This document shows, in pieces, positions 1 to 23,722 of a DNA stretch of 64,000 bases. The DNA lies in the NCBI RefSeq assembly GCF_964213995.1, contig NC_135808.1, forward strand, positions 50,406,001-50,470,000, given 5' to 3'. The notes under the pieces are model-generated. The model did not search any database. It saw only the letters and a list, made by a program, of their open reading frames with translations, and was not told the DNA's origin. The position numbers and the translations under genes were made by a program. The number at the start of each line of letters is the position of its first letter. Positions within the stretch are counted from its first letter, which is position 1. This DNA is from Mustelus asterias (lineage: Eukaryota).

Positions 1-523
1 TCTATTCTTCCTGCCAAAGTGGACACCTTCACATTTACCCAGGATATACTCCAGATGTTTCGCCATTCACTTCCCCTGTCCCTATCCCTTTGCAGACTCT
101 CTACCGCTTCTTGATAACTTACTTTCCCACCTATCTTAGTGTCATTGGGACATCAGCTCCATTCACTCCCTTCATCCAAGTCATTGATACGGATTGTGAA
201 TAGTTGTGGTCCCAGCACTGATTGTTCCAGAACTCCACTAATTACAGCTTCCCAACCCCAAAACAATCATTTATCCTCTCTCTCTGGTTGGTTAGCTAAC
301 CAATCCTCTATCAATGCTAATATGTTACCCACACACCATCGTCTTACCCACACACCATCGTATCTTGTGTTGTAACATTTGATGTGGCAATTTATCAAAT
401 ACCTTTTCGAATTCCCTGTACATCACAGCTACAAGTTCCCTTTTATCCATTTTGTGACCTCCGCAAAGGTGGGCAATGACATGTTTACAACAGAAAGAAA
501 CTGCTCCACATCGACCATGATGT

Positions 524-845
524 CCCACTGGAGCCTCCAATAGGGAGCAGTAAACATGGGCCTCCTTCCCACTGGAGCCTCCAATAGGGACCAGTAAACA
601 TGGCCTCCTTCCCACTGGAGCCTCCAATAGGGACCAGTAAACATGGCCTCCTTCCCACTGGAGCCTCTAATAGGGACCAGTAAACATGGGCCTCCTTCCC
701 ACTCGAGCCTCCAATAGGGACCAGTAAACATGGGCCTCCTTCCCACTGGAGCCTCTAATAGGGACCAGTAAACATGGCCTCCTTCCCACTGGAGCCTCCA
801 ATAGGGACCAGTAAACATGGGCCTCCTTCCCACTGGAGCCTCCAG
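524..845. repeat. 43-44 bp minisatellite, about 7 copies
   Basis: Unit CCCACTGGAGCCTCCAATAGGGACCAGTAAACATG(G)GCCTCCTT starts at 524, 568, 611, 654, 698, 742, 785, 829. Confidence 0.95.
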
Positions 846-1089
846 TAGCTGAGCTTCAAACTCCACATCTTCTCCATCATGTAGGCCTCTTATTTCCATC
901 TCTACAACATTGTCTGTCTCTACACTACATCAGTCCCTTAAGTACAGAAACCCTTATCCCTGCATGTCCCGCCTACTAACTCCATTATTCCGATATCCTC
1001 ACCCAGCTCCCCACATCCATAAACCCCAACTTGTCCCAAATGCAGTGGATCCGGATCCTGTCTCATACCAAGTGTCGTTCCAACGCCAC

Positions 1090-1262
1090 CCCTGATCTCA
1101 GTGACCTATCACCCCTGACCTCAGTGATCTATCACCCCTGACCTCAGTGATCTATCGCCCCTGACCTCAGTGATCTATCGCCCCTGACCTCAGTGATCTA
1201 TCGCCCCTGACTTCATTTACCTGTTACCGCTGGCCTCACTGATCTGTTACCCCTGACCTCAC
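1090..1262. repeat. 23 bp minisatellite, about 7 copies
   Basis: CCCTGACCTCAGTGATCTATCGC repeated at a 23-bp period. Confidence 0.9.
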
Positions 1263-1739
1263 TGCCCTCCAATTCCCTCCATGACCTCACTCCTCCCTAC
1301 CCTGCGTTCCTGCTCCAGACTCACATTTCTCCCTCACCTTCCATCTGCTGACTCTGCTCCCCGACCCATCACTGCTTCCTTCATCCCACCATTGACAGCA
1401 GAGCCTTCAGACGCCCAGGCCCTGCTCTCTGACCTCCCACCCCTAATCCCTCCCCCTCTCCTTGTCTCTCTCCCCATCAAACTCCATTCTTTCACCTAAG
1501 CCTTCGATCTCTCTTCCTAAACTACCCCCAGCCCCTCCCCCATTCCTCTTATGCTGCTCTGTGAAACATAACGGGCTATGTTGTACACTAAGGTGCTATA
1601 TAAATTCAGGTTCTGTGTGGATTTTGGTTGGGGACAGAATTAGACACAGTGGTGAAGGCTCTTGCAGTCAAATATCCTGCTGACAGGATCCAGATTTTAA
1701 CAGATCGAATGGGACATTGTATAAAGTAGGAATTATTAA

Positions 1740-4560
1740 AAATGTATTCATTGACGGGGTGTGGGTGTCACTGGTTATACCAGCATTTATTCCCATCCCT
1801 AATTGTCCTTGAGAAGGTGGTGATGAGCTGCCTTCTTGAGCTGCTGCAGTCCATGAGGTGTACATACACCCACAGTGCTGTTAGGGAGCGTTTTCAGGAT
1901 TCTGACCCAGCGACAGTGCATGAATGGAGATGTATTTCCACGTCAGAATGGCGTGTGGCTTGGAGGGGAATCTCCTGGTGGTGTTGATCCCAGGGATCTG
2001 CTACATTTGTCTTTCCAGATGATAGTGGTCATGGTATTCGAAGGTGCTGCCTCAGGAACCTTGGTGAGTTCATGCAGGGCATCTTATAGATGGTACGCAC
2101 TGCTGCTGCTGTCCGACAGTGGTGGAGGGATTTAATGTTTGTGAATGGGTGCCAATCAACTGGGGCTGCTTTGTCCTGGATGATGTTGAGCTTCTTGAGT
2201 GTTGCTGGAGCTCTACTCATCCAGACAAGTGGAGAGTATTCCATCACACTCCGGACTTGTGCCTTGTAGATGGTGGACAGGCTTTGGAGAGTCAGGATGT
2301 GAGTTACTCACCGCAGGATTCCTATCCACTGACCTGCTCTTGTAGCCACAGTATTTATAGGCTGGTCCAGTTGAGTTTCTGGTCAATCATATCCAACAGG
2401 ATTTTACAGTGGGGGATTCAGCAATGGTAATGACATTGAATGTCAAGGGGAGATGTTAAAATTCTCTCTTGTTGGAGATGGTGATTCCGTGGCACTTGTG
2501 TGGCACGAATGTTCCTGCTTCAATATCTGAGGAGTTGTGAATGGTGCTGAGCATTGTGCAATCGTCAGTGAACATCCCCACTTCTGAAGGTTATTAATGA
2601 AGCAGCTGAAGATGGTTGTGTCTCAGACACTACCCTGAGGAACTCCTGCAGTGATGTCCCAAGGCAATCTCAGATTGCAATCCGCTAACCACAACCATCT
2701 TCTCATCATATTGGGTGGCACGGTGACACACTCGTTAACACTACTGCCTCACAGCGCCAAGGACCCGGGTTTAATTCCTGGCACGGGACACTGTCTGTGT
2801 GGAGTTTGCATGCTCTCCCCGTGTCTGCTTGCGTTTCCTCCGGGTGTTCCGGTTTCCTCCCACAGTCCAAAAGACCTGCTGGTTAAATGCATTGGTCATG
2901 CTAAGTTCTCCCTCAGTGTCCCCGAACAGGCGTCGGAGTGCGGTGACTAAGGGATTTTGCTGGTAACTTCATTGCAGTGTTAATGTAAGCCTACTTGTGA
3001 CACTAATACTGACACTTAAACTTAAAAGTCCAATAACCACAACCATCTTCCTTTGTGCTGGGTGTGACTCCAGCCAGTGGAGAGTTTCCCCCTGATTTCC
3101 ATTGGTTCCAGTTTTGCGAGGGCTCCTAGATGCCACACTCGGTCAAATGCTGCCTTGATGTCAAGGGCAGTCACTCTCACCTCACCTCTGGGGTTCAGCT
3201 CTTTTGTCCATGTTTGAACCAAGGCTGTAATGAGGTCAGGAGCTGAGTGACCCTGGCGGAACCCTAACTGAGTGTCACTGAGCAGGTTGTTGCTAGTAAG
3301 TGCCGCTTGATAGAACTGTCAACAATTTAAATCACTTCACTGATGATTCAGAGTAGATTGATGGGGTGGTAAGTGGCCAGAATAGAATTATCCTGTTTTT
3401 TGGTATACAGGACATGTCTGGGCAATTTTCCACATTGCCGGGTAGATGCCAGTGTTGTAGCTGTACTGGAACAGCTTGGCTAAGGGCACGACAAGTTCTG
3501 GAGCGCAAGTTTTCAGGACTATTGCTGGATTATTGTCAGGAGACAGAGTCATTGCTGTATCCAGTTGTAAATGTATCAGCCTTTTCTTTTCACTGATGTG
3601 CTGGGCTCCTCCATCATTGAGGATGGGGATATTTGTGGAGCCTCCTCCTCCAGGGGGTTGTTTAATTGTCCACCACCATTCACGGCTGAATGTGGCAGGA
3701 CTGCAGAGCTTTGATCTGATCCATTGGTTGTGGGATGGTTTAGCTCTGTCTATCACTTGCTGCTTCTGCTGTTTGACACACAGTCCTGTGTTGAAGCTTC
3801 ACCAGGTTAACACCTCATTTTTCAGTATGTCTGCTGTTGCTCCTGCCATGTCCTCCTGCGCTCTTCATTGAACCATAGTTGATCCCCTGGCTGGGTGGTA
3901 ATGGTAGAGTGGGGGATATGCCGGGCCATGAGGTTACAGATTGTGGTTGAGTACAATTCTGCTGCTGCTGATGGCCCACAGTGCCTCATGGATGCCCAGT
4001 TTTGAGTTGCTAGATCTGTTTGAAATCGATCCCATTTAGCATGGTGGCAGTGCCACACAACACGATGGAGGGTACCCTCAATGTGAAGATGGGATTTTAT
4101 CTCCACAAGGACTGTGCGGTGGTCACTCCTACCGATACTGTCATGGACAGATGCATCTGCGGCAGGCAGGTTGGTGAGGATGAGGTCGAGTATGTTTCTC
4201 CCTCTTGTTGGTTCCCTCCCCACCTGCCGCAGTCCCAGTCTAGCAGCTATGTCCTTTAGGACCCGGCCAGCTCGGTGTGTGGTGGTGCTACCGAGTAACT
4301 CTTGGTGATGGACATTGAAGTCCCCACCCAGAGTACATTCTGTGTCCTTGCCACCCTCAGTGCTTCCTCCAAGTGCTGTTCAACATGGAGGAGAACTGAT
4401 TCATCAGCTGAGGGTGGACAGGATGTGGTAACCAGAGGAGGTTTCCTTGTCCGTGTTTGACATGTTACTGAGAGACTACATGGAGTCTGGAATGTTGTTG
4501 AGGATTCCCAGGATAACTCCCTCCTGACTGTATCCCACTGTGCCTTCTGTGCTGGGAGAT
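1740..4560 (-). mobile_element. Degenerate non-LTR retrotransposon (CR1/L2-group LINE, endonuclease plus RT), interrupted by a SINE
   Basis: Frameshifted fragments EPTRGRNILDLILTN...SDHRTV (APE endonuclease C-terminus), REWWWTIKQ and ALDIKAAFDRVWH (RT). Confidence 0.85.
2714..3025 (+). mobile_element. tRNA-derived SINE (V-SINE/HE1-like)
   Basis: GGGTGGCACGGTG...CACTACTGCCTCACAGCGCCAAGGACCCGGGTT head and central GTTTCCTCCGGGTGTTCCGGTTTCCTCCCACAGTCCAAA domain. Absent from the paralogous arm near 26020. Confidence 0.85.
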
Positions 4561-7548
4561 TAGAGGTAGTGGACACGGTTCACCATTTTCTCCCGTCTCA
4601 GTAACAAACATCCAGCTGCTCTGAGCTCCTTCTTTCACTTCCTCTGTTGGTTACGTTTCAATCTTCCGATCTGACAGTCTTTGCAGTTATTTTTGACACT
4701 GGGGATTTGTGCTGTGGTCTGAATCTCTAACAATAACTGTCCAATCAGTGAAAAGAACAGCAGCTCAGAGCAGTCAGGACTGAGGAGCCAGGCTCACTGG
4801 GAAACACATTGGGAAGATCAAAGCCATTGGTCTTCAGCTCCCGATACAAACTCCATCCCTCCCCCTGAGCACTGTCTGCTGCTCAACCAGACTCTCTACA
4901 ACATTGGCCTCATCTTTGACCCCGATCTGACCCTCCAAATCCTCCACATCACAAAGATTACACTGCTCTCTCTTTCTTCGGTTGAAAGTGGATGTTTTCA
5001 CATTCTCCACATTGAACTCCATCTGCCATTGTCTTCAGACCCCATCACAAACTCTGTTCCCTCAACACTGATTCCATCCCTTCCCCATTGGAGTGTCTGA
5101 CACTGAACCACACACTCCACAGCCATGGTGTCCTATTTGACCCTGAGATGAGTTTCCCACCACATCATCCACTCCATCACTAAGACCACCTAGTTCCACC
5201 TCAGTAACATCTCCCGAGTCCCCCCTGCCTCACATCATCTGCTGCTGAAAATCTCATCCGTGTCTTTGTTATCTCTGAACATTACTATTCCAATGCTGTC
5301 CTGGCCGACCTCACACCCACCACCCTCCGTTATCATCAGCTCACCCAGAACTCTGCTGCCCGGATCTGAACTCACACCAAATCCCGTTCACCCGTCACCC
5401 CCTGTGTTCACTGACCTACACTGACCCCCGGTCCAGCCATGCCCCGATTTTAACATAAACATCCTGCCTCTCAAATCTCTCCCTATCCTGCACCCTCCCT
5501 ATCTCTGTAACCTCCTCTAAGCTGCCTAACTTAGTGTGCTCAGTAATCTTGGATATGTGTCTCTCTATTGCTTCATCCAAGTCATTGTCAAATATAGTGA
5601 AAAGCTGAGGCTTCAGCACAGATCCCTGGGGACATCACTATTCACAGCTTGCTGATTGGAATACACACACATTATCCCTACTCTCTGTCTCCTACCTCCA
5701 AATCAATTCCTTATCTATGGCAAAAGCTTTCCTCAAATTCCATACGCTTCCATTTTTATTCACAGCCTCTCATGTGGCACCTGCCCGAATGTCTTCTGGA
5801 AATGCATAGAAATAACATCCAGAGACATTCCTTTATGAGCACATTAGTGGCTCATTCACAAATGTAAGCGGCTGAGTTGAACATAAATGACTCTTTTGAA
5901 ATCCGTGTTGACTCTCTCTGATCCGTTCATGTTTCTCACTCGTCCTGCCTCTAAAAAAACATTCCAGTCACTTTCCCACAATACACATTAAACTGAGCTG
6001 TTAGTTGTGAATGACTCTAATAAAACAGCTAGTACAGACATGAAGAGTTGAATGGCCTCCTCCTGTGTTATAGACCTACTGAGTCCTTGACTGAAACATC
6101 TGGATTGGAACAGGAGGTGGGCTGGAGGTTAAACAATGAGTTGAAGGTAGACGGAGTGTTATTAGTGGGTCATGTCCAATGTACATTGTGTCCATCACTC
6201 TCTCCAAAAGATGGGGGCAAATTTCCCAGAAAATAATGTGCCATCGGGGCGGAAAAATGGGAGATTTTCCTGCCGTTTTCTGGGTGTATTTAGTTGAATT
6301 TCCAGCACTCGGTGTTTCACAAAATCCGTCAGGGATTTACACCAGTGGACGGGGTTAATCCCACCCGTGAGGACTGGATCAGCAGCCCCGCATCCCTGCC
6401 TCGCGATGGTTTCCCCAACCTAATTCCCCACTCCCCTGATCACAGCCCCCAACCCCCCCACCCCCACCTCCCCTTCCCCAATAGACTGGCCTCCTGATGG
6501 CTTCCCCAACCCCCACCCACCCCTCCAATTGCCGGCCCCGACACCCCCACTCCCTGATCACCAGCCTCCCAATGGCTTCCTCAACTGGAAGGTTCCTGCT
6601 GAACTCAGCAACAATTCTGGTCCCCCCCTCCCCACACCAGCTTCTAAACAAACATCAGCGATGGAATTGGGGAGAAGCGCAGAAAGAAACTTTAGTAAAA
6701 GTCAAGCCAGCTTTACAATCATCGTCATTGCTCGTGCACTTTGACCCGAGCAAACCATTCGGAATCACTTGTGACGCCTCGCCATACTTTGCAGGGGGAT
6801 GGGACACACTGTAGATGTACAGTTTGGAGTGAGATTCAGTCAGATATAGAAGGAAAACTCGGTCAGTCCAGCAGGCAGAGAAGACTTGGGCATGATAAGG
6901 CACATGGGAAGATTGGAAGGCTAAACTGCATCTATTTTAATACAAGGAGCCTGTCTGGTCAGGCAGATGAACTTAGAGAGTTGGTCAGCACGTGGAAATA
7001 TGAGATTGTTGCAATCACTGAGACATGGTTGAAAGAAAAGCAGGACTGGCAACTCAACACTCCAGGGTATAGAAGTTTCAGGTGTGATGGGGGTCGGGGG
7101 GGAGTGGGGTATGTAAGAGAGGAGGGGACATTGTTTTATTGATTAAAGAGACCAAGCCTGCAGTAATGAGGGAGGAGATATTGGAACACTCTTCAAATGA
7201 GGCCATATGGGTGGAGCTGAGAAATATAAAGGGCGATCATTGTGCTGGGATTACACTACAGGCCTCCCAACACTCAGAGGGAGATGGAGGAGCAGATATG
7301 TAGGCAAATCACAGAGAGAGGTGTGAGAGGAATAGGTCTGCAGTAGTCGGGGATTTCAACCTCACCAATATTAATGGAATCACCTCAGTGTGAAAGGATT
7401 AGACAGGGTGGAGTTTTTGAAGTGATTCCAGAGCTTTTTATGTCAGTAGATCGATAATCCAACTTGGGATGGCCCGTGCTCGACCTAATCCTCGAGAATG
7501 AAGCTGGGTAAGTTGTTGAAGTATCAGTGTGTGAGCATTTTGGGGATA

Positions 7549-8308
7549 AGAACAAAGAACAAAGAACAATACAGCACAGGAACAGGCCCTTCGGCCCTCC
7601 AAGCCCGCGCCGCTCCCCGGTCCAGGATTGAATCCTGAATCCAGGATCCCCGCCCAATTTTCCAGCCTATCTACATCCTAATATCCTATCCACCGAGCTG
7701 TCCCTCACAGCTACGATGCTTTGTTCATCACAACCTATTAACTCTCCCCCACCCCCCCATTCCAGACCATGTGATCTCCAGGGAGAGGCGAAAACCCAGA
7801 GTGAAAACCCCAGGGCCAATATGGGGAAAAAAAAATCTGGGAAATTCCTCTCGACCCCCTGAGGCGATCGAAACGAGTCCAGGAGATCACACTGGCCCTG
7901 ATCAGAAAATGCTTCCCAACCCTATTCATTTCCACTTCTGCTTTACGAACACCATCTGAATTCCCTGCCCCCGAGACAGGTTCCCAACTATCCGCAGTCT
8001 CGCTCTGTACTGGCACCAGCAAGATGATCATAGAATGAAGCCTTGAAACGAGAAACAAAGAACAATTAGCCCGCGCCGCTCCCTGGTCCAAACTAGACCA
8101 CTCTTTTGTATTCCTCCATTCCCACTCCGTTCATATAGCTGTCTAGATAAGTCTTAAACGTTCCCAGTGTGTCCGCCTCCACCACCTTGCCCGACAACAC
8201 ATTCCAGGCCCCCACGACCCTCTGTGTAAAATATGTCCTTCTGATATCTGTGTTAAACCTCCCCCCCTTCACCTTGAACCTATGACCCCTCGTGAACGTC
8301 ACCACCGA
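7549..8308 (-). mobile_element. CR1 3' end with (TTCTTTG)n tail and an extra ~440 bp segment in the 3' UTR
   Basis: TRGHRFKV...FTQRVVGAWN...KTYLD C-terminus. Tail reads AAGAACAAAGAACAAAGAAC on + at 7548-7568. Confidence 0.85.
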
Positions 8309-8494
8309 TGGGGAAGGTGGACAGAGCAATGAAACGTGGAATTTAATCCTGATAAGTGTGAGGGGAGATTTAATAAAGGTTGGATATACAAAATGAATGG
8401 TAGGTCCCGAGGGAGAATTGAAGAACAAAGGGACTTTGGTGTACAAGTCCATGAATCCCTGAGGGATAGTGCGATGAAGAAGGCAATTGGAATA

Positions 8495-9293
8495 CTTAGA
8501 GTTCAATCCTGATAAATGCGAAGTGATGCATTTTGGTAGAACTAATGTAGGGAGGAGCTATACGATAAATGGCAGAACCATAAAGGGCGTAGATGCGCAG
8601 AGGGACCTGGGTGTGCAAGTCCACAGATCCTTGAAGGTGACGTCACAGGTGGAGAAGGTGGTGAAGAAGGCATATGGCATGCTTGCCTTTATAGGACGGG
8701 GCATAGAGTATAAAAGTTGGGGTCTGATGTTGCAGATGTATAGAACGTTGGTTCGGCCGCATTTGGAATACTGCGTCCAGTTCTGTTCGCCACACTACCA
8801 GAAGGATGTGGAGGCTTTGGAGAGAGTACAGAGGAGGTTTACCAGGATGTTGCCTGGTATGGAGGGGCTTAGTTATGAGGAGAGATTGGGTAAACTGGGG
8901 TTGTTCTCCCTGGAAAGACGGAGGATGAGGGGAGACTTAATAGAGGTGTATAAAATTATGAAAGGCATAGATAGGGTGAACGGTGAGAAGCTTTTCCCCA
9001 GGTCGGTGGTGACGTTCACAAGGGGTCATAGGTTCAAGGTGAAGGGGGGGAGGTTTAACACAGATATCAGAAGGACATATTTTACACAGAGGGTGGTGGG
9101 GGCCTGGAATGCGCTGCCAGGCAAGGCGGTGGAGGCGGACACACTGGGAACGTTTAAGACTTATCTAGACAGCCACATGAACGGAGTGGGAATGGAGGGA
9201 TACAAAAGAATGGTCTAGTTTGGACCAGGGAGCGGCACGGGCTTGGAGGGCCGAAGGGCCTGTTCCTGTGCTGTATTGTTCTTTGTTCTTTGT
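8495..9293 (+). mobile_element. 5'-truncated CR1 LINE (RT C-terminal region and 3' tail)
   Basis: EFNPDKCEVMHFG...LVRPHLEYCVQF...LERRRMRGDLIEVYK, followed by a TTCTTTG tail. Confidence 0.92.
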
Positions 9294-10398
9294 TGTTTGT
9301 ATTAGCCGGGGTTCGAATATGGGAGCAGGTAAATGGGATTAGTATAGATTGGTTTGGATGGCCAGCATAGACATGGTGGGCCGAAGGACCTGTTTCTGTG
9401 CTGTGTGACTGTATGACGCTATATGGAGTTGGAGCAGTTCTATCCCATAGACTGGCAGATGGGACGGAGAGGCTAAATTCATTTGCTTTGAGGACTTTGT
9501 CAGACGTTGAGAAAATGTACTCACAAATCGATAAAGAAAGCCGAGCAGTTATCTACACAGTGAGGAATTTCACCAATACGTCTATGGGCGGCATTTCACC
9601 ATCGTGTCAGAGCGTAAGCCATTGTTGGGGCTTTTCCGGGAGGATAAGCCAGTGCCACCTATTGCCTCTGCCAGGGGGCAGAGATGGGCATTGCTGCTGG
9701 CACTAAACATCTAAACCTTCCAGCTTAGGCCAGGAACACAGCTCTCAAATGCAGATGCATTGAGCCGCCTGCCGCTACCCCAGACCATACCGTCACCGCC
9801 TGTTCCACAGGAGATAGTATTGGCTCTGCATTATTTGGTCACCCTGCCTGTCTCAGCAGCCCACACTCAGACGTGGACAGATAGGGAGCCGGTGTTAGCA
9901 AAGGGCAAGAAAATGGTACTGACCGGGTGGCACTTGGACAAGGCAGAGCAAATGAAGCTGTATTTACATTGCAGGGACCAGATACCCTGCGAAGATGGGG
10001 TGCTATTGTCGGGGGGTCTGTGTCAGCGTACCACCCCTTGTGCAATGGCCACTGCTCCAAGAGTTACATGATACCCAAACTGGCCAGAGCAGAATGAAAG
10101 TGTTGGCCAGAAGTTATGTCTGGTGGCCTGGCATTGACAGAGACATTGAACAAACGGTTGGGCAGTGTGAGAGTTGTCTGACTCAGCAAGCGTTACCTCC
10201 ACCAGCGAACATGCTCCCTTGGGATGTCCGGCCCGTCTGTGGAAAAGGTTTCATGTAGATTTGGCTGGACATTTTTGGGGGCAGATGTTCCTGATGTCAG
10301 TCGATGCCCATTCCAAGTGGCTGGACGATCAGCTCATGAGACCCATCACAGTCTCCATTTACCATCGATAAACTGAGGCAGATCTTTGTGATCCATGG

Positions 10399-11350
10399 TG
10401 AAGATGGGAATGGGTTCATGAACTTTGTAACACTTAAGCATTGAGACCCGAACTCTGTAATACTTAGAGATTTGTGAGACTCACTGTGGAGCTCATTGTT
10501 TTTGTGTCTGTAGAACTTGTTTTCGTCACCCAGATAAGGGAAGCAGCTGCTGTGTACAAGTTCATGATTTTTCCCAGCTAATTGTATGTCAGGAATGTGG
10601 CTAACCCAGCTGGTATAAGCTAAGCTAGACTCCATTTTATGTTCAGTTATATTATGTATCTTTGTTTTACACGGTGGAGCTGACATGTATGCCTTCTGTG
10701 ATCGTATAATCATAGATTCATATATATTCATTATATACTATTCATCCTCACCGATATAAAGTGTTATATAGGCCCCTGTACATCAGTTAACTTGTTTGTG
10801 CAAACTTATAATCTAAACAACCCACAGGAGTCAAAGAACAAAGAACAAAGAACAGTACAGCACAGGAAACAGGCCCTTCGGCCCTCCAAGCCTGTGCCGC
10901 TCCTTGGTCCAACTAGACCAATCGTTTGTATCCCTCCATTCCCAGGCTGCTCATGTGACTATCCAGGTAAGTCTTCAACGATGTCAGCGTGCCTGCCTCC
11001 ACCACCCTACTTGGCAGCGCATTCCAGGCCCCCACCACCCTCTGTGTAAAAATAACTGTGTAATATAACTGAACATAAAATGTCCACATAGAGATGACAA
11101 AACAGACAGCCTTGAGATGGCCATGATTACGCGGACTATGTGAAGGATGGAATCGCTGAGGCAGCAATAATCATGGGAAGATGCGGACGTGACCAGGGAC
11201 GAAAATATATGTATAAATATTTGATCTTAACTCATATTCGGTGTGAAGTCTGGAGACCGCGTTAGGGATCGGACTTCTCCCACAATTGTGAAAATAAACC
11301 ACTATACTTTGACTCACGACTAGTCTCAAAGGTATTATTTACCTCCAACA
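10399..11350 (+). mobile_element. Solo LTR related to the ERV at 46947, with a CR1 3' fragment (about 10834-11052, - strand) inside
   Basis: TG...CA termini, 4-bp TSD ATGG (10395-10398 / 11351-11354), and AATAAA near the 3' end. Both ends resemble 46947-47622. Removing it restores the Gypsy integrase motif IHG-LPE. Confidence 0.85.
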
Positions 11351-13252
11351 ATGGTCTTCCTGAAGCGTTGCTATCAGACAGCGGAGCAGCATTCACGCTG
11401 ATGAATTTCAGACTTTGGTCAAGTTTAATGACATTTGTCCTGTCAGGTCAGCCCCCGACCATCCTGCCTCGAATGGGTTGGCGGAGCGAGCCATGCTGAC
11501 GTTCACCGCTTCATGTGAAGCAGGTTCAAATGGCCGTTCCATTGTGATTGGGCAGTTATTTGCTGTCATACAACACTACACCTCACGCCATCACTGGGGT
11601 CATGCCGAGGTCACACCTGCAGAGTTGTTAATGGGTCGGTGCCTGTGTACCTGTTTAGATTTAGTGTCTCCAAATTTGTCGGGGGGTGGGGGTGGAGGCT
11701 CGGCAAGCCTCTCAGAAAGAATATTGTGACTCTCAGAAAGGGGACGGATTGTTTAATGATGGCGACCTTGTGTTGAGAGGGAATTTGGGTGGCGGACCCA
11801 CCTGGGTACCAGGGAGAGTTGTGGAGAAGACAGGACCAGTCTCATATTTGGGGGAGACACCGGGCCGAAGAGTTAAGGAGCATGTTGGCTACCTACGCAA
11901 GAGTTTAGAGCCAGTTCCAGGAGCTGAGCAAGTGGGCCCTGTATCCAGTTTGTGTGTAGCAGCCTCTGAACAAGACAGCTCCATGTCCATGGTGAGGCCA
12001 AGGCAGCCTCTGGCTTGGGTGGGTGAGTCAGAGGAAGGGGCCGTCCAGGGCCTAGCTCCAGAGGTGGTTAGCACATCCACCCCATCAGTGGATCCCGTGT
12101 CGATGGCTGCTGAAGAGCCCCTGACAGAGTTGCAGCGTTCCGCAAGGTTCTGGAAATCTCTGGACCAGCTGACATTATGAACTGTCTTTCCCTGGTGTCC
12201 CTTCTGTAATATTGTTGTTTCTCTGCCTATGTGTTAACTGTTTTACTTGGTGTTTTATCATAGGGAGTCCAAGATGTTACTGGGGAAGGAGTGTGTGAGC
12301 CTGGCCCCTTTAAGGGGCAATCCTTCACGGGCCACATGACCAGGCTGGAGCCAATGGAGTGTGAGGATGTGATATTGGGCCAATCGGGAGTGAGGGTGAT
12401 CATTCCTGGGGCTGGAGGCTTCAGTTGGAGTCAGGATGTTGTTGGGAGTAGACCTGTATCGTTGTGCTGTTAAACCCTTCATTGTAAATAGTTCTCATCA
12501 ATAAAGCCTTTAGTTAGTTATTTCCAAATCGAGTCTCCTCCAGTTATTACAATGAGCATCTGCACCACTTTGGATCACAACAGCTCTCTGATAACAGCAA
12601 ATACACAGACTAACTATTAAACTGTAACAGTTTCACCAGCTGCTGTCACCCTCCCTACTTCCCTCCATTTATTCTGCATTCTCACCATCTCCCCTCGATT
12701 TCTCACTGAATCCTCCGGTTTCCTAGTCTTTCCTGTGGCCAGGTTCACCTGCCCCCTTCCCCTTGGGATTGTTCGATTGCTTTGTTCCATCAACTTTCTG
12801 GTTGTGGTCAGGGTTCTCTCCACCGCTCCCCGAGACATTCGGTCTGGGGCAGCGTCGATGTTTAACATCCTGTCCCACCTTGGACTGAATACATAACCAG
12901 TGAGGGTCCGACCCACACGATGAGAGTTTGTCACCGTAAAGGAGTCAGGGATCTGTAGCAGAAAGTGTGATTAATGTCAGTCTCTAATCCTGCGGATAGG
13001 AATCTCATCCTGTCCATGGAAGCCTTTCACTGAAAGGTTAAATCTCTGTTAACTGATCCTGTACTGACTAAACTGTCAATTCTCTGTCACTGCTAATTTG
13101 TGTTGGATTGTTTTTAATTTTTCAATCAATTGTATTTTGTCATTTCTGTTGCTGTGGCGATAGCCTCTTGGTCAGGTTGTTGTTGTAAATGAGAATTGGT
13201 TCTCAACTGACTCACCTGGTTAAATAAAGATTCAGTAAAATAAATGTCTGAG

Positions 13253-13456
13253 ATAAAAGCAAAATACTGCGTCTGCTGAAATCTGAAACAAATCCCGGAC
13301 GTTCCGGTTCCCGCTGAACCATTACCTTATCCCTCACTCTGGCATCTCCTGGGTAGTCACTCCCCCTCAAGACTCTAGACTTGAAACGTTGGCTCTACAC
13401 TCTCTCCACAGATGCTGTCAGACCTGCTGAGATTTTCCAGCATTTTCTGTGTTTGT
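13253..13456. mobile_element. Probable Penelope-like terminal fragments
   Basis: GAAACGTTGGCTCT..CTCTCCACAGATGCTGTCAGACCTGCTGAGATTTTCCAGCATTTTCTG and AAAAGCAAAATACTGCG resemble, from recall, shark Penelope terminal repeats. Confidence 0.5.
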
Positions 13457-13473
13457 GTGTGAACTTAATGACT

Positions 13474-13800
13474 CGGGAGACACAATGGCTCAGGGGTTAG
13501 CACTGCTGCCTCACAGCGCCAGGGACCTGGGTTCAATTCCGGCCTGGTGTGACTGTGTGGAGTTTGCACATTCTCCCGGTGTCTGTGTGGGTTTCCTCCG
13601 GGTGCTCCAGTTTCCTCCAACACTCCAAAGGTTAGATTGATTGGCCAAGCTAAATTGACCATGAGTGTCCCAAGATGTGTCGGTTAGAGGGATTAGCAGG
13701 GTGAATAAATGGGGTTGCGGGGATAGGGGCTGGAGAGGATTGTTGTCGGTGCAGATTAGCTGGGTCGATTGGCCTCCTTCTGCACTGTCGGGGTTCTATG
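13474..13800 (+). mobile_element. HE1-like tRNA-derived SINE with CR1-type 3' tail
   Basis: GGTTAGCACTGCTGCCTCACAGCGCCAGGGACCTGGGTTCAATTCC (pol III box B-like), ending GGCCTCCTTCTGCACTGT..GGTTCTATG. Confidence 0.88.
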
Positions 13801-15537
13801 AGGTAGAAAGCAATCCCCTGTGAGAATGCAGCAGTGTGTAGGGGAGGTTTGGACTGTCTTGAAAGTCTTCAAGAAGTTTCTATCCCTCTGCCCCTGATAT
13901 GTTCCGTCATTATCTTCCTGTGATAAACTGATCAGAAATGTGATTGTGTTTCTCCCAGCTCCTGTCACGGGCTGTGTAACTACTAATTCCTGTCAGTTTT
14001 CCTGTACATTGATAATATGGAATTTCTCCACAGTCTGATGTGTGTGTGGAGGCACCGTACTAAATCTTATATCTTCAATATCTGTCCTAACATTATCTAT
14101 CAATTCCTGAGACAACATGTCCCATCCCCTCCCTTCAGACTGTGAGTCAGTCATATTAATGAGTTGGAAGCCCTCTGGTCTACTGTCCCCCTGAAGTTGT
14201 ATGTCTGTCATTGGATTCACTTCCTGCTCTGTCACTCACACTCCTCCTGACTCTTTTCTTACCCAGGGGGCACAAGTTTGGTCACTTTTCTGTAGCCCCA
14301 TCAGCCAATAAGGTCAGAACGAGGCTGGTCAAATTGTCGCTCACCTCCAGGCTCCCGATTGGAACATCCTGGTACTTGCCATCATTGGAGGGTAAATCCC
14401 GGGCATTCCGGTGCCCCCTTAACCATGACCTTATCCCTCACTCTGGCATGTCCTGGGGGAGTCGCTCCCCCTCATTTCATTCTGCTCCTCCTGCTGCTGT
14501 GTGAGCTCAGACCTCAATTCCTGAAGCTGTCTACACAACTCTACAATGTAGCTTCTTCTCCTCTCTTTCAATGGCCCAGTATCTTCACTTCCAGTGAGGC
14601 TCCCAGCTCTGCCTGTCATCATGGTGTTAATCCTGTGTTCCTACTTTGTGTAGCTGATTAATACACTCACTAATACACCCACCCACCCTTTGTCCAGCTC
14701 TCCCTTTACCTGAACCCAACTTGTGGTCAGTTGTTGGGAAAAATTATTTTTCCAGACCCTTCAATTGTCTCAAACACAGATTCCTTCTCATTTCTTGTTT
14801 TTTATTCCTTCTGGCCACGATTCTCCTCAAGTCAGTTTCTCTATTGCCTCGATCGTTTAAAAAACTGTTTTCTTACTCTTTAGGCCATATTAACCATTTC
14901 ATGTCAAAGGCGGTGTGGGGGGTGGGGAGGTCTCTCACTCTGGATCTTTGCTTATCTCCCCCTGTCTGGTTCCAATGTCACAGCTGATGGCCAGATTATT
15001 AAATTCAGGTCTCTTCAGTAGTTTGTATGTTGTGTCCTTTTTCCCGCACTCCATCTCTGACCCTGAATCATTTGCTCAGAACCTTTCACACAGACAATAG
15101 TTCGCAACTTATCTGGTTCAGTTTGTCTGGAGGGACTTTCCAGTCCAATAAAGTGCTTTCATGTAAGGAGCGGTGAGAGTTCCTTTCAGAGTCTCACTGA
15201 GGTTCAGAACCGGACTCTGGACGGAACAGGAATGAGCGACTGGGACAAGTTTTGTGTTAAAACAACCATTTTATTGAATAATGATAAAAAGAATATATAA
15301 GAAAGATAATGTGTATGGAAAGGAAGAAAGATAACTTTATTGAAAGGAGAAAGCACTCTGTATATATCTGAAGAATAGAAGACAGTCGGATGTTTGTTTA
15401 AACACAAACGATAGCCCCAATTTGCGCTGTTCCATGACAGCTCCCCAGAATTGGTACACGTTCCCCTCCCCTGGGTACACACATGCCCAAGTTGCTGAGT
15501 AACCTCAATGGGTGAACACTACAGTCAGTCACTTAAG

Positions 15538-15850
15538 GGGCGATACGGTGGCACAGTGATTAGCACTGATGCCTCACAGGGCCAGGGAACCGGGTTCGAT
15601 TCTCATCTTGGGTCACAGTCTGTGCAGAGTCTGCATGTTCTCCCCGTGTCTGTGTGGGTTTCCTCCGGGTGCTCCGGTTTCCTCCCACTGTCTGCAAGAT
15701 GTGCTGGTTAGGAGTTTTGGCCATGCCAAATTCTCCCTCAGTGTACCCGAACAGGCGTCAGAGTGTGGCGACGAGGTGATTTTCACAGTAACTTCATTGC
15801 AGCGTTAATGTAAGACTAATTGTTGCATTAAGAAATAAAATTTTGTTTAA
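15538..15850 (+). mobile_element. tRNA-derived SINE
   Basis: Same head, central domain and 3' part as the SINE at 2714-3025. Confidence 0.85.
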
Positions 15851-16213
15851 ACATTTCTGTTTCTAACCCTTCCTCCTGTTGTCCCTGGGTGACTATTCCA
15901 CCTTGGCTGCAGCACTCAGTCTCTGAAACAATGTCTCTTTAACCTGGATTTCTGGCTCCATTCCAGTCTTGTGAAGACTGTGACACTGTCTGTCCCAAAA
16001 CAAATCTCAGTTCTTCCCACAGGGACCTCAATGTGAAGCAGACTTTGTAATATTCAGCTTGTTGACGGAGCTCTTGATGATGTCTTCACATCTGTCATCA
16101 ATCAGCTGTTATGTCCATCAATTAAACGTCATCTTCTGATGCTTCAGGTGAGCACTCCAGATAAGATTCCTCAGCGACTTGGTCTGTAGACCAAGGCTCA
16201 CAGAATGTGGTAG

Positions 16214-16413
16214 GCACGGTAAGTAGTCTCACAACACCAGGTTAAAGTCCAACAGGTTTATTTGATAGCACGAGCTTTCGGAGCGCCGCTCTTTCATCAG
16301 GTGATGAAGGAGCAGCGCTCCGAAAGCTCGTGCTACCAAATAAACCTGGTGGGATTTAACCTGGTGTTGTGAGACGACTTACTGTGCCTACCCCAGTCCA
16401 ACACCGGCAACAC
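16214..16413. mobile_element. Palindromic Penelope-type insertion (inverted terminal-repeat pair)
   Basis: 16209-16392 is a near-perfect palindrome. The insert is flanked by a 15-bp direct repeat CACAGAATGYGGTAG (16199-16213 / 16414-16428). Confidence 0.8.
16269..16303 (-). ncRNA. Minimal hammerhead ribozyme-like motif
   Basis: Minus strand reads CAC-CTGATGA-AAGAGCGGCGCTCC-GAAA-GCTC-GTG: both conserved core boxes, stem II GAGC/GCTC, stem I CAC/GTG and almost no stem III. Confidence 0.6.
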
Positions 16414-16784
16414 CACAGAATGCGGTAGAACAGTACCTGTAATAAACAAGAAACAACTTATTTTAATATTCTAGCTTGAGAAAGTGGAGAAACAAAAGAT
16501 TGAGTCTGAACAACAGCTGTGTGGCCAGTCCAGAGAGAAAACACGATCTGGAAAAACAGCTCACCCCTGATTCTTCTTCTGAATGAATCAGAGCACAATC
16601 ACAGCTGGGTTAAGATCAGTGTGGATCAGGTGAGAAAATACAAAATGAGTTCAAATATTAAAAATCAGAGCAGGGCAGAAATAAAATGTAAAATACAAAA
16701 TTATAAAAGTTAGTGGCAGCAGCAGGCCTCAGGCCTACACTCAGAATATTTTAAAAATAGAAATCAGGCCGATTTGACTTTTTT

Positions 16785-17752
16785 TCATTCATTCATGGGA
16801 CATGGCATTGCTGGCTGGCCAGCAGTTATTGCCCATCCCTACTTGCCCTTGAGAAGGTGGTGCTGAGCTGCCTTCTTGAATCACTGCAGCCCACGGGCTG
16901 TGGGTTGACCCACAATGCCACTAGGGAGGGAATTCCAGGATTTGAACCCAGCAACTGTGAAGGAACGGCGATATATTTCCAAGTCAGGAAAGTGAGTGGC
17001 TTGGAGATGAACTTGCAGGTAGTGGTATTCCCATGTATCTGCTGCCCTTGTCCTTCTAGATGGAAGTGGTCGCGGGTTTGGAAGGTGCTGTCTAAGGATT
17101 TTTGGTGAATTGCTGCAGTGCATCTTGTAGATAGTACACACTGCTGCGACTGAGCGTCGGTGCTGAAGGGATTGAATGTTTGTAGATGTGGTGCCAATCA
17201 AGTGGGCTGCTTTGTCCGGGATTGTCAAGCTTTTTGATTGTTGTTGGAGCTGCACCCATCCAGGCAAGTGGGGAGTATTCCATCACACTCCTGACTTGTA
17301 GATGGTGAATAGGCTTTGGGGAGTCAGGAGATGAGTTACTCACCGCAGTATTCCTTGCCTCTGACCTGCTCTTGTAGCCACTGTGTTTATGTGGTGAGTT
17401 CAATTGAGTTTCTGGTCAATGGTGACCCCAAGGATGTTGACAGTGGGGGATTCAGTGATGGTAACACCATTGAATGTCAAAGGGCATTAGAGTGTCTCTT
17501 ATTGGTGATGGTCATTGCCTGGCATTTGTGTAGCGTGAATGTTACTTGCCACTTGTCAGCCCAAGCCTGGATATTGTCCAGGTCTTACTGCATTTGAACA
17601 TGGACTGCTTCAGTATCTGAGGAGTCATGAATGGTGCTGAACATTGTGCAGTCATCAGCAAACATCCCCACTTCTGACCTTATGATGGAGGGAAGTTCAT
17701 TGATGAAGGAGCTGAAGATTGTTGGGCCGAGGACACGACTCTGAGGAAGTCC
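16785..17752 (-). mobile_element. LINE 3' portion, same family as 1740-4560
   Basis: VLGPTIFSSFINELPSII..VGMFADDCT, QVRSVMEYSPLAW, SLQHRRSVAAVCTIYKMH. Confidence 0.85.
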
Positions 17753-18979
17753 AGACATTAACATGTTTTGTGTCTTTATCATCTTCCCCTCTGTTAAGAA
17801 TTGGGGAAAATGAAAATAAACAAATGACATTGGGATAAAACAGGGAGATGTCTGAAGAGATGTGAATTGGCATCTCAGTGAGAAAAGCAAGTGTTTACTG
17901 AGGTAACTGAGGAAAGCAATGGGGTTTAGAAAAGATAACTTCAAAGTGGAGGGATAAGGAAATCGACACGTAAATGCCCAAAGCCGATTCCACAGGGTGG
18001 GTAACATCAAAGGGAAAGAATGATATATCCATAGCACAGTGACTGGGGGAAAGGGGAGACAGACACAGACACAGCTAACATCAGCACACACTCAGCTGCA
18101 GAAACAGTCTCCTGAAAATAAGCAGCAGGTTTCACCTTCACTGAAACTGAAGACAGTTTTCCCGAACGCTGACACATAACCCGTGTGTGGTAATTATTCA
18201 CTGGATTTAGCTCACAGAGTTACATAATATTGGATGTTGTTTTGGAACAAAGGGACATCTCAGTGTTCAGGAAACGTAGGTGATTGAGAACAAAGGGGTA
18301 GCTTCATGTAATAGTGTGTGTGTCTAGCCCTCAGTGCAGTTAAATATATTGTCGTGTATTCTCGAGCTTGTGTGTTTTTTTTCTTTTACCTGGATGAATA
18401 TTCTGTATTAATTGTTCACACAAAGACTGGACTATTTCTCCCTGGTTCACACACTTTTCCTCACAGGATACCAGAGTGAAAATCGACACCACTAAGAACC
18501 AATGTTCCATGTTCCCATTCTGAGCTTTGAGATCCTCTCACATTTAACATCAGCGCGGTTCTTAACACCTCAAACAACATTCTCTTCTCTGGAAACTAAC
18601 TCTGGAGATTGTTGCTGGTGATTTTTACATTTTAAAATGATTCCAGATCCGAATAGTTTTGTTGTTGAGCTGCCTGCTTTAACTCTGATACAAGTTACAT
18701 TTCTGACAAACTTCAAGCTTTCGGGTTTATATTTTGGGAAGAGACAAACACATTTTAAACTCTTCCTTCAGCACAGAAGCTTTCAGCATTTGGATTTGTG
18801 TCAATTGTTGTCAAACCTTTTAAAATAAACATTTCCTGTTGAGAACTTGATCAGGACCCAAAGCTCAAATCTTTAAACTTTGTAAGAATTATAATTTCCA
18901 CTTTCAAAACTGAAACTCCCTTTTCCTGATGTGTGTGGCTTTGTATCCAGATTGAAAATCCCACATGTTTATCAACACA

Positions 18980-19320
18980 TGTTGGTGGTGTTGTGGATAG
19001 TTTGGAGGGATGTCAGAAGCTGCAGCGTGACATAGATAGGATGCAAGACTGGGCGGAGAAGTGGCAGATGGACTTCAACCCGGATAAATGTGTAGTGGTC
19101 CATTTTGGCAGGTCAAATGGGATGAAGGAGTATAATATCAAGGGTAAGACTCTTAGCAGTGTAGAGGATCAGAAGGACCTTGGGGTCCGGGTCCATAGGA
19201 CTCTTAAATCGGCCTCGCAGGTAGAGGAGGTGGTTAAGAAGGCATATGGTGTGCTGACCTTCATCAATCGAGGGACTGAGTTTAGGAGTCCGGGGATAAT
19301 GATGCAGCTATATAAGACCC
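18980..19320 (+). mobile_element. CR1 RT fragment
   Basis: VGGVVDSLEGCQKLQRDIDRMQDWAEKWQMDFNPDKC. Confidence 0.88.
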
Positions 19321-19914
19321 TTGATCAGTGAGTCCATATCAGATCCCCTGTCCCCAAGCAAAAGATACCATTGGCCCTGAAGGGGTTAAATCATTTTCTT
19401 TCAACATAAAGTAAAGGTTCTAAACCAATGTGCAAACTCCACACAGACAGTGACCCAAACCGGGAATCAAACCCAGGTCCCACGGTGCCACCTGGTTCTA
19501 AACCATGACCATGCTGTGGGAATAAAAATCTTCAGATCAATTCTCAGAGTCTTAACGTTGCTGGCAATCTTGTTCCATTTGTGGTTCTCTGGAAATAAAG
19601 ACACAAGGTCCATTCTGCTCAGGGGAATGGATTCAGCAATCTGAAAGTTCAAGCTGTTGTTGCAAAGAGTTCACTCTGTGTTCGTCTGCAAGAGGTTGCT
19701 GCAAAGCTGCTTCATTTTCAACACAGGGAAAAGCTGGTGTATCTTTAGAGAACAATCAAACTCTGCTTTCTGGACAGAAATCTCAACTCAAACCTTTTCA
19801 CTTCAAACTTTGCTTTGTGTCATTATATTGTCCTTGAATCCAACTCATTATCCACATTGTGAAGCTTCAAATTGCTGAAACTTCACACACAAATGAGAAA
19901 TTAGGGAAGGAAAC

Positions 19915-22900: not shown

Positions 22901-23097
22901 GGGCTGTGGAGGCCGAGACGTTGAGCGTCTTCAAGACAGAAATTGATAAATTCTTGATTTCTCGAGGAATTAAGGGCTATGGGGAGAGAGCGGGTAAATG
23001 GAGTTGAAATCAACCATGATTGAATGGTGGAGTGGACTCGATGGGCCGAATGGCCTTACTTCCGCTCCTATGTCTTATGGTCTTATGGTCTTATGGA
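19915..23097 (+). mobile_element. Young CR1 LINE, 5'-truncated within ORF1, with intact ORF2 and (TCTTATGG)n tail
   Basis: ORF1 C-terminus HGLHLDRAGFSVLAKRVNGVVNRTLN*, uninterrupted ORF2, and tail TCTTATGGTCTTATGGTCTTATGG. Confidence 0.93.
20131..23007 (+). CDS. CR1 LINE ORF2 (APE endonuclease plus reverse transcriptase), 958 aa
   Basis: YLNARS, GITETW, MGDFN, SDH endonuclease motifs; YRPISLTS, LDFQKAFD, GVPQGSVLGP, KFADD RT motifs. No stops or frameshifts. Confidence 0.95.
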   Translation: MTQCLERLSKPRSTTLRKQKGTVNRELKVLYLNARSVRNKVDELVAQIVTGRYDVVGITETWLQGVQDWQLNIQGFTTYRKDREVGRGGGVALLIRNEIKSIALNDIGSDDVESVWVELRNHKGKKTIMGVMYRPPDSGQDQGHKMHHEIERACQKGKVTVIMGDFNMQVDWVNNVASGPKEREFIECLQDGFLEQLVMEPTREQAILDLVLCHEPDVIKDLKVREHLGSSDHNMVEFSLQFERRKAESDVKVLQLNKGNYRRMREELTKIDWKQSLVGKTVEQQWQEFLGVIEDTVQRFIPNKRKVIRGGIRQPWLTKEVRECIKAKERAYNVAKSSGKSEDWEGYKNKQRITKREIRKERIKYEGRLASNIRNDSKSFFKYIKNKREAKVDIGPLQNDAGNLVMGDKEIAEELNKYFASVFTVEDMSNIPTIQESQGAELNMVAITKEKVLEKLKGLKIDKSPGPDGLHPRVLKEIAEEIVEALVMIFQKSLESGKVPEDWKIAVVTPLFKKGTRKKMENYRPISLTSVVGKILESIVKDEISKFLEVQGRIRTSQHGFSKGRSCLTNLLEFFEEITNRLDQGEPMDVIYLDFQKAFDKVPHGRLLSKIRAHGIRGKVLTWIDDWLSDRRQRVGIKGSFSEWQPVTSGVPQGSVLGPQLFSLYINDLDDGTGGILAKFADDTKIGGGAGSIEEVGRLQKDLDSLGEWSKKWLMKFNVGKCEVVHFGKKNRGMDYFLKGDKIHNAKVQRDLGVLVQDSLKVNLQVESVIKKANVMLSFISRGLEYKSRDVLLRLYKALVRPHLEYCEQFWAPHLRKDILALERVQRRFARMIPGMVGLTYDERLRIVGLYSLEFRRLRGDLIETYKIMNGLDRMDVGKLFPLAGETRTRGHSLRIKGSHFRTEMRRNFFSQRVVGLWNSLPQRAVEAETLSVFKTEIDKFLISRGIKGYGERAGKWS

Positions 23098-23545
23098 AAG
23101 CTCACACACACAAATTCTTCATTGTACACAAACACACACAAATAGAAAGATATGTATATTTCCATTCTGATAACAATTATATGAACAACATTAAACTTTC
23201 AGACTCAAAACAAAGCTACAAGTAGTAGTGGAGGGGGTGGGAGGAATCTTGGAGACTTCCACCGACAGGAACAATCTAAACAGCCGAAGCTCCCATTTCC
23301 TCAGTCCCTGCCTGTCACTGCTCAAGAACGCCCCGAGGGGAACCCTCTCGGTCTGTCACTCACTTGCCCTCTCTCATGCTCTCGCTCCCTCTCTCTCTCT
23401 CTCTGTGTCTCTCACGATCTCTCTCTCTCTCTCCTGGATGAAAGCTTTAGCGATTTGCAGCAAATGAATTCATTTTCACCTTTTTAATTGTTTGAAACAA
23501 TTCAGTGAGTGACATTTTGAGTCCCCAATCTAAATTTTTCCCTCT

Positions 23546-23722
23546 CACTCACTACACTTGACACCAGGAAACGGTTAATACCATTTTACTGCACTATGTC
23601 TCTCACTACACCTGTCACTAGGAAACGGTCAATACTGTTTTACTGCACCGTGTCTCTCACTACACCTGTCACTAGGAAACGGTCAATACTGTTTTACTGC
23701 ACTATGTCTCTCACTACACCTG
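23546..23722. repeat. 54 bp tandem repeat, about 3.3 copies
   Basis: GGAAACGG recurs at 23567, 23621, 23675. Confidence 0.9.

What the first reader, a model, noticed from the sequence alone, without database searches (positions are those of the whole stretch)
1..4957. Mirror copy of the V-upstream region predicts a hidden divergent kappa cluster just left of the window
Seen: 1-4957 is the reverse complement of 24107-28891, and the match is still running at position 1. In arm B the leader ATG lies 875 bp past that point. Inference: a minus-strand leader/V begins roughly 0.9 kb before the window start, making a head-to-head pair with promoters about 30 kb apart.
Basis: partly seen in the sequence, partly recalled or inferred. 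Interest (0 to 1): 0.7.

Follow-up and report, generated by a model that had tools for sequence, protein, structure and literature searches.

The report
Back-to-back shark antibody gene copies
The start of this shark DNA is a flipped, aged copy of the stretch that leads up to an antibody light-chain gene, so another such gene probably sits just outside the window facing the other way; this is an ordinary gene family, though the copies are packed closely and in alternating directions.

Summary
Window 1-4957 is a colinear inverted paralog of 24107-28891: 91.5% over 4255 columns, gapped, and 41/42 identical at the window edge. The leader ATG lies 875 bp further, at 29766. The locus is an ordinary shark Ig kappa (NS4/type III) cluster: L-V-12RSS / 23RSS-J-C. 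The arms are mostly LINE/SINE debris and position 1 lies inside a CR1-like fragment. Reciprocal private insertions still show a segmental duplication. In same-organism contigs the arm-A letters are the majority type (19 of 21 listed letters). An A-like contig runs 130 bp past the edge-equivalent point, and the flank is multicopy, at 0.38-0.92 of leader/V depth. No contig bridges flank to V and no genome is held, so the hidden V is inferred (about 0.75), not shown. The window also holds a second intact kappa C on the minus strand (62996-62668), which the finding does not mention. Clusters thus likely alternate direction every ~30 kb. Verdict: probably right, a new member of a known family, modest interest; it makes inversional inter-cluster V-J joining in sharks testable.

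The parts
1..4957 (-). Arm A: inverted paralog of the kappa cluster's 5' flank, open at the window's left edge; a composite of LINE/SINE fragments, two minisatellites and ~360 bp not repeated elsewhere in the window
1..456 (-). CR1-type LINE RT fragment in arm A that contains the window edge
   Evidence: tblastn with the window's own LINE ORF
523..848 (.). 44-bp minisatellite, 7.5 copies in A against 3.5 copies in B (28152-28304)
2685..3032 (.). 348-bp SINE-like insertion private to arm A, flanked by a ~17-bp direct repeat; arm B has the empty site
   Evidence: related copies at 15545-15831, 34722-35005, 41840-42053
3890..4957 (-). Inner tract of arm A, 99.1% identical to B 24107-25165 (candidate gene-conversion tract or assembly collapse); start approximate
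4958..24106 (.). 19-kb spacer without V, J or C remnants; includes a long LINE ORF (19984-23007)
24107..28891 (+). Arm B: 5' flank of the + strand kappa cluster, the part matched by arm A
27515..27840 (+). LINE 3'-end insertion private to arm B
28680..28752 (+). 73-bp insertion private to arm B with a TGACA duplication; arm A has the empty site, and a joint in run X3 (depth 38) skips it with arm A's letters
28892..29765 (+). Part of the flank whose mirror would lie left of the window: LINE continuation to ~29310, GA-rich tract, TGACGT at 29627, octamer-like ATTTACAG at 29652, TATAAA at 29700 (promoter role inferred)
29766..29814 (+). Leader exon, followed by a 186-bp GT-AG intron (29815-30000)
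30001..30298 (+). Kappa V exon, open frame
   Evidence: V-set E 1.4e-17; 85-89% identity to the top 8 shark kappa-like hits
30299..30326 (+). Perfect 12-spacer RSS
30332..31548 (.). 61-bp x 20 tandem array in the V-J interval
31726..31995 (.). 270-N scaffold gap between V and J
32014..32052 (-). 23-spacer RSS of J (one heptamer mismatch)
32053..32087 (+). J segment (FGKGTKLRL), phase-1 donor at 32088
36625..36953 (+). C1, kappa constant exon, intact
62668..62996 (-). C2, second kappa constant exon, intact and facing C1 tail to tail; 8 of 329 nt and 4 aa differ; inside a 95% inverted repeat 36268-38047 / 63354-61557
63974..63996 (-). 21/23 match to the intron just behind J (32110-32132); predicts the J of the C2 cluster about 20-55 bp beyond the right edge
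   Evidence: 0 of 200 and 0 of 2000 shuffles reach it; E 0.001

Best explanation
This is part of an array of shark Ig kappa (NS4/type III) V-J-C miniclusters that spread by segmental duplication of the whole cassette plus at least 5.8 kb of retroelement-rich 5' flank, some copies landing inverted. Shown: a complete + strand cluster; a second intact C on the minus strand 26 kb downstream; an inverted paralog of the 5' flank that runs off the left edge, whose two arms gained separate insertions after the split. Inferred: arm A continues into a minus-strand leader and V roughly 0.9-1.4 kb left of the window, giving the order minus cluster, plus cluster, minus cluster at about 30-kb spacing. Also inferred: the 99% inner 1-kb tract, and the near-identity close to the V, come from gene conversion between copies. 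By established shark biology each cluster joins its own V to its own J by RAG deletion.
For: Colinear 5-kb match across several unrelated repeat pieces, two minisatellites and a stretch not repeated elsewhere in the window. Reciprocal private insertions, two with duplicated target sites. Edge identity is 41/42, whereas generic LINE contigs laid nearby differ at 29-59 letters in ~190-340. Reads of organism A: 19 of the 21 listed letter differences in 28160-28817 equal arm A's letter. A joint in X3 (depth 38) skips B's 73-bp insert with exactly arm A's letters. X4 record 26 carries A-like letters and runs to 29021, 130 bp past the edge equivalent. X3 record 18 (28850-29072, 2 differences) has depth 46 against 49.8 for the leader contig. 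At the marker sites compared, flank depth stays below leader/V depth (0.38-0.92), as expected if each flank belongs to a V. An opposite-facing kappa C is directly present. Arm A and V lie in one gap-free contig, and so do C1 and C2.
Against: The upstream sequence was not seen (no genome held). No listed contig spans flank to leader; table 8 shows 32 of more than 120,000 pieces. Only 0.22-0.30 of leader/V depth lies on B's GA-rich linker, so most copies differ there or are not linked. At 28572 the flank/V ratio is only 0.38 in X3 and 0.47 in X4. The tool warns that contig depth is not copy number. The A-like contigs are sisters, not arm A itself: record 26 has 11 differences over 28765-29021, while A has 15 in 28765-28891 alone. 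The four runs come from one study and at most three samples. Homology around C1/C2 breaks within 0.36-1.1 kb of the exon, so such arms can end abruptly at insertions.
Confidence: 0.75

Rival explanations
1. Orphan flank: arm A is a real duplicate of the 5' flank, but the V was never copied, or was later deleted or cut off by an insertion just left of the window.
For: Position 1 lies inside a LINE fragment. Linker depth is low (0.22-0.30 of V). The C1/C2 homology ends abruptly at insertions.
Against: A-type is the majority flank in reads (83-100% at 28572), and flank depth does not exceed V depth at the marker sites. Contigs close to B's sequence appear from 28850 toward the leader.
Confidence: 0.15
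2. Assembly artefact: the assembler switched between paralogs inside the 99%-identical 1-kb tract, so the outer 4 kb of arm A belongs to a cluster elsewhere, or the inverted join is false.
For: The scaffold has an N gap. The 99.1% tract runs right up to the junction. The family is multicopy, about 10-18 times the single-contig depth. The best runs hold only 0.64 of the sampled words of 1-6000.
Against: Both arms have their own unique junction to the spacer. An 11% outer divergence with reciprocal insertions is not a read-duplication or allele pattern. A second, independent inverted pair (C1/C2) occurs in the other contig.
Confidence: 0.07
3. Independent transposon insertions: the match is only similarity between copies of the same repeat families, with no bearing on Ig genes.
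For: Large parts of the arm encode LINE fragments; tens of thousands of contigs lie on the LINE parts.
Against: The same order and junctions of several different elements, two minisatellites and a 356-bp stretch at 99.4% not found elsewhere in the window. Only 26% of arm A is matched anywhere else in the window.
Confidence: 0.03

Closest known systems
Nurse shark Ig kappa (NS4) / horn shark type III light-chain miniclusters (PMC2193156 passages; PMC2435157 passages)
   Same: One V, one J, one C; split V-J with RSS; leader intron of 186 bp, exactly as reported for NS4; C domain 84-86% identical to the nurse shark entry P0012 and to horn shark kappa P0017; multicopy.
   Different: The V-J interval is 1754 bp (1.2-kb array plus a gap) against about 500 bp. 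Read depth suggests roughly 10-18 near-identical V copies here against 50-70 NS4 genes. The passages read give no spacing or orientation for neighbouring kappa clusters.
Elasmobranch IgH miniclusters in mixed orientation (PMC12227049 table S1, part 1 of 2; PMC2435157)
   Same: Neighbouring clusters face both ways: great white IgM rows are 5 minus and 4 plus of 9, including minus-then-plus pairs; stingray IgNAR rows are 5 plus then 7 minus.
   Different: Those clusters lie over 100 kb apart (about 170 kb for the minus/plus IgM pairs; 120 kb in nurse shark), against 26-31 kb here. The table concerns heavy chains; the kappa hits I saw in it were TCR/NAR V rows.
Zebrafish IgL clusters with inversional inter-cluster V-J joining (PMC3014032 passages)
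   Same: Closely linked V-J-C clusters with segments in opposite polarity; the V-J distances here (about 33-34 kb) are shorter than the 81-kb event reported.
   Different: In zebrafish V is often inverted relative to its own J-C and such rearrangements were cloned. Here each cluster is internally co-oriented and no rearrangement was tested.
Inverted duplications in other Ig loci: human IGK (10.1101/2023.10.23.563321, search listing only) and avian IGH (10.64898/2026.09.05.749481, abstract and outline)
   Same: Inverted segmental copies in an Ig locus; gene conversion is part of the avian model.
   Different: Those are translocon loci of many V genes or pseudogene donors, not whole V-J-C cassettes.

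Membership tests
Shark Ig kappa (NS4/type III) minicluster, + strand cluster | V and C domains group with elasmobranch kappa, not with other light-chain isotypes | tested here: met
   C 79-91% identical to shark kappa-like entries of near-full coverage against 48-50% to two Heterodontus lambda-like entries; V 85-89% (top 8) against 35-42%. The V tree sets those two apart at 100/100; long-branch warnings apply.
Shark Ig kappa (NS4/type III) minicluster, + strand cluster | Single V, single J, single C in one orientation | tested here: met
   One V, one J with an RSS and one + strand C. V and J are joined across a 270-N gap, so their linkage rests on scaffolding.
Shark Ig kappa (NS4/type III) minicluster, + strand cluster | 12-spacer RSS on V and 23-spacer RSS on J (kappa-type order; recalled) | tested here: met
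   30299 (12 spacer, 0 mismatches) and 32052 minus (23 spacer, 1 mismatch); the only two hits of the scan.
Shark Ig kappa (NS4/type III) minicluster, + strand cluster | Split leader with a 186-bp intron | tested here: met
   29815-30000, GT-AG; 186 bp in PMC2193156.
Shark Ig kappa (NS4/type III) minicluster, + strand cluster | Octamer upstream of the leader | tested here: inconclusive
   No exact ATTTGCAT near the leader; ATTTACAG (2 mismatches) at 29652, upstream of the PstI site at 29691. The octamer consensus is recalled.
Shark Ig kappa (NS4/type III) minicluster, + strand cluster | Rearranged and expressed in B cells | not testable with these tools
   No RNA holder on record was listed; only contigs were available.
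Kappa cluster predicted left of the window | Minus-strand leader, V and 12-RSS within a few kb of base 1 | tested here: inconclusive
   No genome held; A-like contigs extend 130 bp past the edge equivalent, but none listed bridges to the leader.
Kappa cluster predicted left of the window | Own J and C | not testable with these tools
   Outside the window.
Segmental duplication (against independent TE copies) | Colinear shared junctions plus post-duplication private insertions | tested here: met
Teleost-type inversional inter-cluster IgL rearrangement | 12- and 23-RSS of different clusters in inversional geometry at short range | tested here: inconclusive
   The geometry follows if the predicted left V and right J exist (about 33-34 kb each); only C2 and a 23-bp post-J match are seen.
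Teleost-type inversional inter-cluster IgL rearrangement | cDNAs or B-cell DNA joining the V of one cluster to the J-C of another | not testable with these tools
   No repertoire reads were available.

The most novel reading that the evidence does not exclude
In this shark the kappa clusters form a compact alternating array (head to head, then tail to tail, about 30 kb apart). That puts each V's 12-RSS about 33-34 kb from a neighbour's 23-RSS in inversional geometry. RAG could then swap V segments between clusters without loss: after the left V joins the middle J by inversion, the middle V faces the left J and can still join it by deletion. This would give sharks a teleost-like combinatorial or editing route that the reviews read say they lack, while the inverted arms homogenise one another by gene conversion.
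Probability: 0.12. Interest if true: 0.62.

Novelty: new member of a known kind. Interest (0 to 1): 0.3.

Why it matters
The genes are ordinary shark kappa light chains. The arrangement matters a little more. Published reasoning for why sharks rearrange only within a cluster leans on large distances and uniform polarity (PMC3014032 and PMC5192425 passages), and a 2025 paper says the genomic distribution of the miniclusters is not well known (PMC12227049). Here two kappa C exons face each other 26 kb apart in one contig, and a third cluster probably sits head to head 30 kb upstream. C1 and C2 differ at 8 nt, so long-read repertoire data could test directly whether V-J joining crosses cluster borders when neither distance nor polarity forbids it. 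I found no description of kappa cluster spacing or orientation in sharks in seven literature searches. The library lacks most subscription journals, where the main shark IgL work is published (recalled), so this is not evidence of absence.

Tried and rejected
Fetching the upstream DNA: no genome is held for this window. Earlier scan notes: nothing by place or by words. Sequencing runs: all 21 listed are Logan contigs, and no RNA holder is on record; this says nothing about expression. Reads were laid on 28100-30330 at 80% likeness; no listed piece spans the stretch, and 29073-29334 has no near-identical long piece among the 32 shown, which proves nothing either way. V, C, J or promoter remnants in the spacers: none beyond chance (tblastn E 1.7 or worse). 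Further inverted homology inside the 19-kb spacer: only two short repeat hits. A first global alignment of the right edge to the post-J intron failed; a local alignment found the 23-bp match. My first motif scan missed both C exons; they were found through the inverted repeat. Rejected: an exact mirror or read-duplication (11% outer divergence); allelic haplotigs (divergence and insertions too large); independent TE matches (shared junctions). Structure prediction and prokaryote or viral collections were not used, as irrelevant here. Only part 1 of 2 of table S1 of PMC12227049 was read, and the supplements of the bioRxiv preprint were not seen.

Full report
OBSERVATION. A self-BLAST of the window gives a colinear chain of minus-strand hits between 1-4957 and 28891-24107. 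A global alignment gives 4335 aligned columns at 91.3%, with 622 A-only and 450 B-only bases. Leaving out the poorly alignable 27516-27840 gives 362 mismatches in 4255 columns. The match reaches base 1, with one mismatch in the last 42 columns. The leader ATG is at 29766, 875 bp past 28891. At the inner end homology stops at 4957/24107, each arm with its own junction; the two halves of the 19-kb spacer share only two short repeat hits. The coordinates are right, but this is a diverged, gapped paralog and not a mirror copy.

WHAT THE WINDOW IS. On the + strand lie a leader exon (29766-29814), a 186-bp intron, a V exon (30001-30298) and a perfect 12-RSS. Then come a 61-bp x 20 array, a 270-N gap, a 23-RSS, J (32053-32087) and C1 (36625-36953). 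Pfam gives V-set and C1-set. Of 35 homologs found among 302 candidates, the best are shark 'kappa light chain-like' proteins at up to 91% identity, against 48-50% for two lambda-like entries. The nurse shark NS4 leader intron is also 186 bp (PMC2193156, passages). This is a standard elasmobranch kappa minicluster. The finding does not mention a second, intact kappa C on the minus strand at 62996-62668. It differs from C1 at 8 of 329 nt and 4 aa, and lies inside a 95% inverted repeat, 36268-38047 / 63354-61557. The last bases of the window match the intron behind J (21/23; 0 of 200 and 0 of 2000 shuffles), which places that cluster's J just outside the right edge. Tail-to-tail kappa C exons 26 kb apart are therefore shown, in one gap-free contig.

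WHAT ARM A IS. It is mostly retroelement debris: CR1-type RT fragments at 1-456 (arm B 28394-29307), a second LINE family in the middle, and a SINE. Position 1 is inside a LINE piece, so 'still running at the edge' is weaker than it looks. The arms nevertheless share the order and junctions of several elements, a 44-bp and a 23-bp minisatellite, and 356 bp at 99.4% found nowhere else in the window. Only 26% of arm A is matched elsewhere in the window. Each arm has private insertions. A has a 348-bp SINE-like piece with a ~17-bp target duplication. B has a 73-bp piece with a TGACA duplication and a ~325-bp LINE end. This is the signature of a segmental duplication followed by separate histories. 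Identity is uneven: 9/1048 mismatches inward of B 25165 against 353/3207 outward (LLR 74.7; maximum 6.0 in 200 permutations). Gene conversion between copies is the likeliest cause (inference); local assembly collapse is the rival.

IS THERE A V TO THE LEFT? No genome is held. All 21 runs listed are Logan contigs. I laid 4 of them (organism A, one study, at most three samples) on 28100-30330 at 80% likeness.

For: of the 21 letter differences listed in 28160-28817 (the table shows 40 rows in all and hides 349), 19 equal arm A's letter. At 28572 the A letter carries 83-100% of depth, so A is the common flank type and B the odd one. A joint in X3 (depth 38) skips B's 73-bp insert with exactly A's letters. 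X4 record 26 starts with 41 unlaid letters, consistent with that skip (inference), carries A-like letters and runs to 29021, 130 bp past the point equal to base 1. X3 record 18 covers 28850-29072 with 2 differences at depth 46, against 49.8 for the leader contig. Generic LINE contigs there differ at 29-59 letters and have depth near 4. Leader/V contigs stand at 10-18 times the depth of those LINE contigs, and the flank at 0.38-0.92 of leader/V depth at the marker sites. That fits a cassette of flank plus V copied ten or more times.

Against: no listed piece bridges flank and leader (32 of over 120,000 pieces are shown). B's GA-rich linker (29375-29449) holds only 0.22-0.30 of the leader/V depth. 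The A-like contigs are sisters, not arm A itself (11 differences against A's 15 or more). The tool warns that contig depth is not copy number. I put the hidden minus-strand V at about 0.75, an orphan flank at 0.15, mis-assembly at 0.07 and TE coincidence at 0.03. If present, its ATG would be near 875 bp and its RSS near 1.4 kb left of base 1, give or take linker indels. It could be split, germline-joined or a pseudogene; about 10% of nurse shark NS4 genes are joined.

HOW IT WORKS. Shown: a duplicated 5' flank in inverted orientation, a complete cluster, and an inverted second C. Inferred: whole-cassette duplications, some inverted, built an array ordered minus, plus, minus at about 30-kb spacing, with patchy homogenisation. 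By established knowledge each cluster rearranges its own V to its own J by deletion (PMC5192425 and PMC4279169, passages). The layout would also place the left V and the middle J, and the middle V and the right J, about 33-34 kb apart in inversional geometry. Whether RAG uses this is untested.

COMPARISON WITH THE KNOWN. The gene type is known (NS4/type III kappa; about 60-70 loci in nurse shark, PMC2435157 passages). Opposite-facing Ig clusters are already visible for shark heavy chains in table S1 of PMC12227049 (part 1 of 2 read): great white IgM rows are 5 minus and 4 plus, with minus/plus pairs about 170 kb apart. Nurse shark IgM loci are at least 120 kb apart. Inversional inter-cluster joining is shown in zebrafish over 81 kb, and the same paper argues that sharks lack it because of distance and uniform polarity (PMC3014032, passages). 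Inverted duplications occur in human IGK (search listing only) and avian IGH (abstract and outline). Seven searches showed no paper on shark kappa cluster spacing or orientation. The library lacks most subscription journals, and unseen supplements may hold such data.

VERDICT. The inference is probably right and not proven. The result is another member of a known multigene family, in a compact alternating layout that makes one old question testable. Interest 0.3.

Noticed in passing
window 62668-62996 (minus) and 63974-63996: A second intact kappa C faces C1 tail to tail, 26 kb away; a 23-bp match to the post-J intron predicts its J just beyond base 64000 and a J-C intron of about 1.0 kb against 4.5 kb in the + strand cluster.
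   Followed up: yes
window 30332-31548: A 61-bp x 20 array (97% matches) starts 5 bp behind the V's RSS nonamer and stretches the V-J interval to 1754 bp, against about 500 bp in nurse shark NS4. The unit holds CACAGT heptamer-like words, but the RSS scan found no RSS in it. It ends 177 bp before the scaffold gap.
   Followed up: partly
window ~3890-4957 / 24107-25165: A 1-kb tract at 99.1% identity inside arms that are otherwise 89% identical, running right up to the homology boundary; it includes 356 bp not repeated elsewhere in the window that could be a regulatory element.
   Followed up: partly
window 16203-16398: A 196-bp self-inverted stretch (88.8%) in the spacer, a long hairpin; it is not at the centre of symmetry of the two arms (about 14530).
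   Followed up: no
window 19984-23007 (+): A 1007-aa open LINE ORF with endonuclease and reverse-transcriptase domains, apparently young, sits in the head-to-head spacer.
   Followed up: partly
window ~48700-52720 (+): An LTR/retrovirus-like element in several separate frames (zinc-knuckle-like and RT-like pieces seen by eye; RNase H and integrase by Pfam) lies in the tail-to-tail spacer; described only.
   Followed up: no
window 10837-11052 and 35042-35256: Two LINE 3'-end copies at 98.6% identity, one in the spacer and one in the J-C intron, suggesting recent insertion activity of that family.
   Followed up: no
window 29659 and 29938: In all four runs laid, the main promoter/leader contig reads another letter than the window at these two places, so the window's cluster differs slightly from the family majority even in its conserved core.
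   Followed up: no
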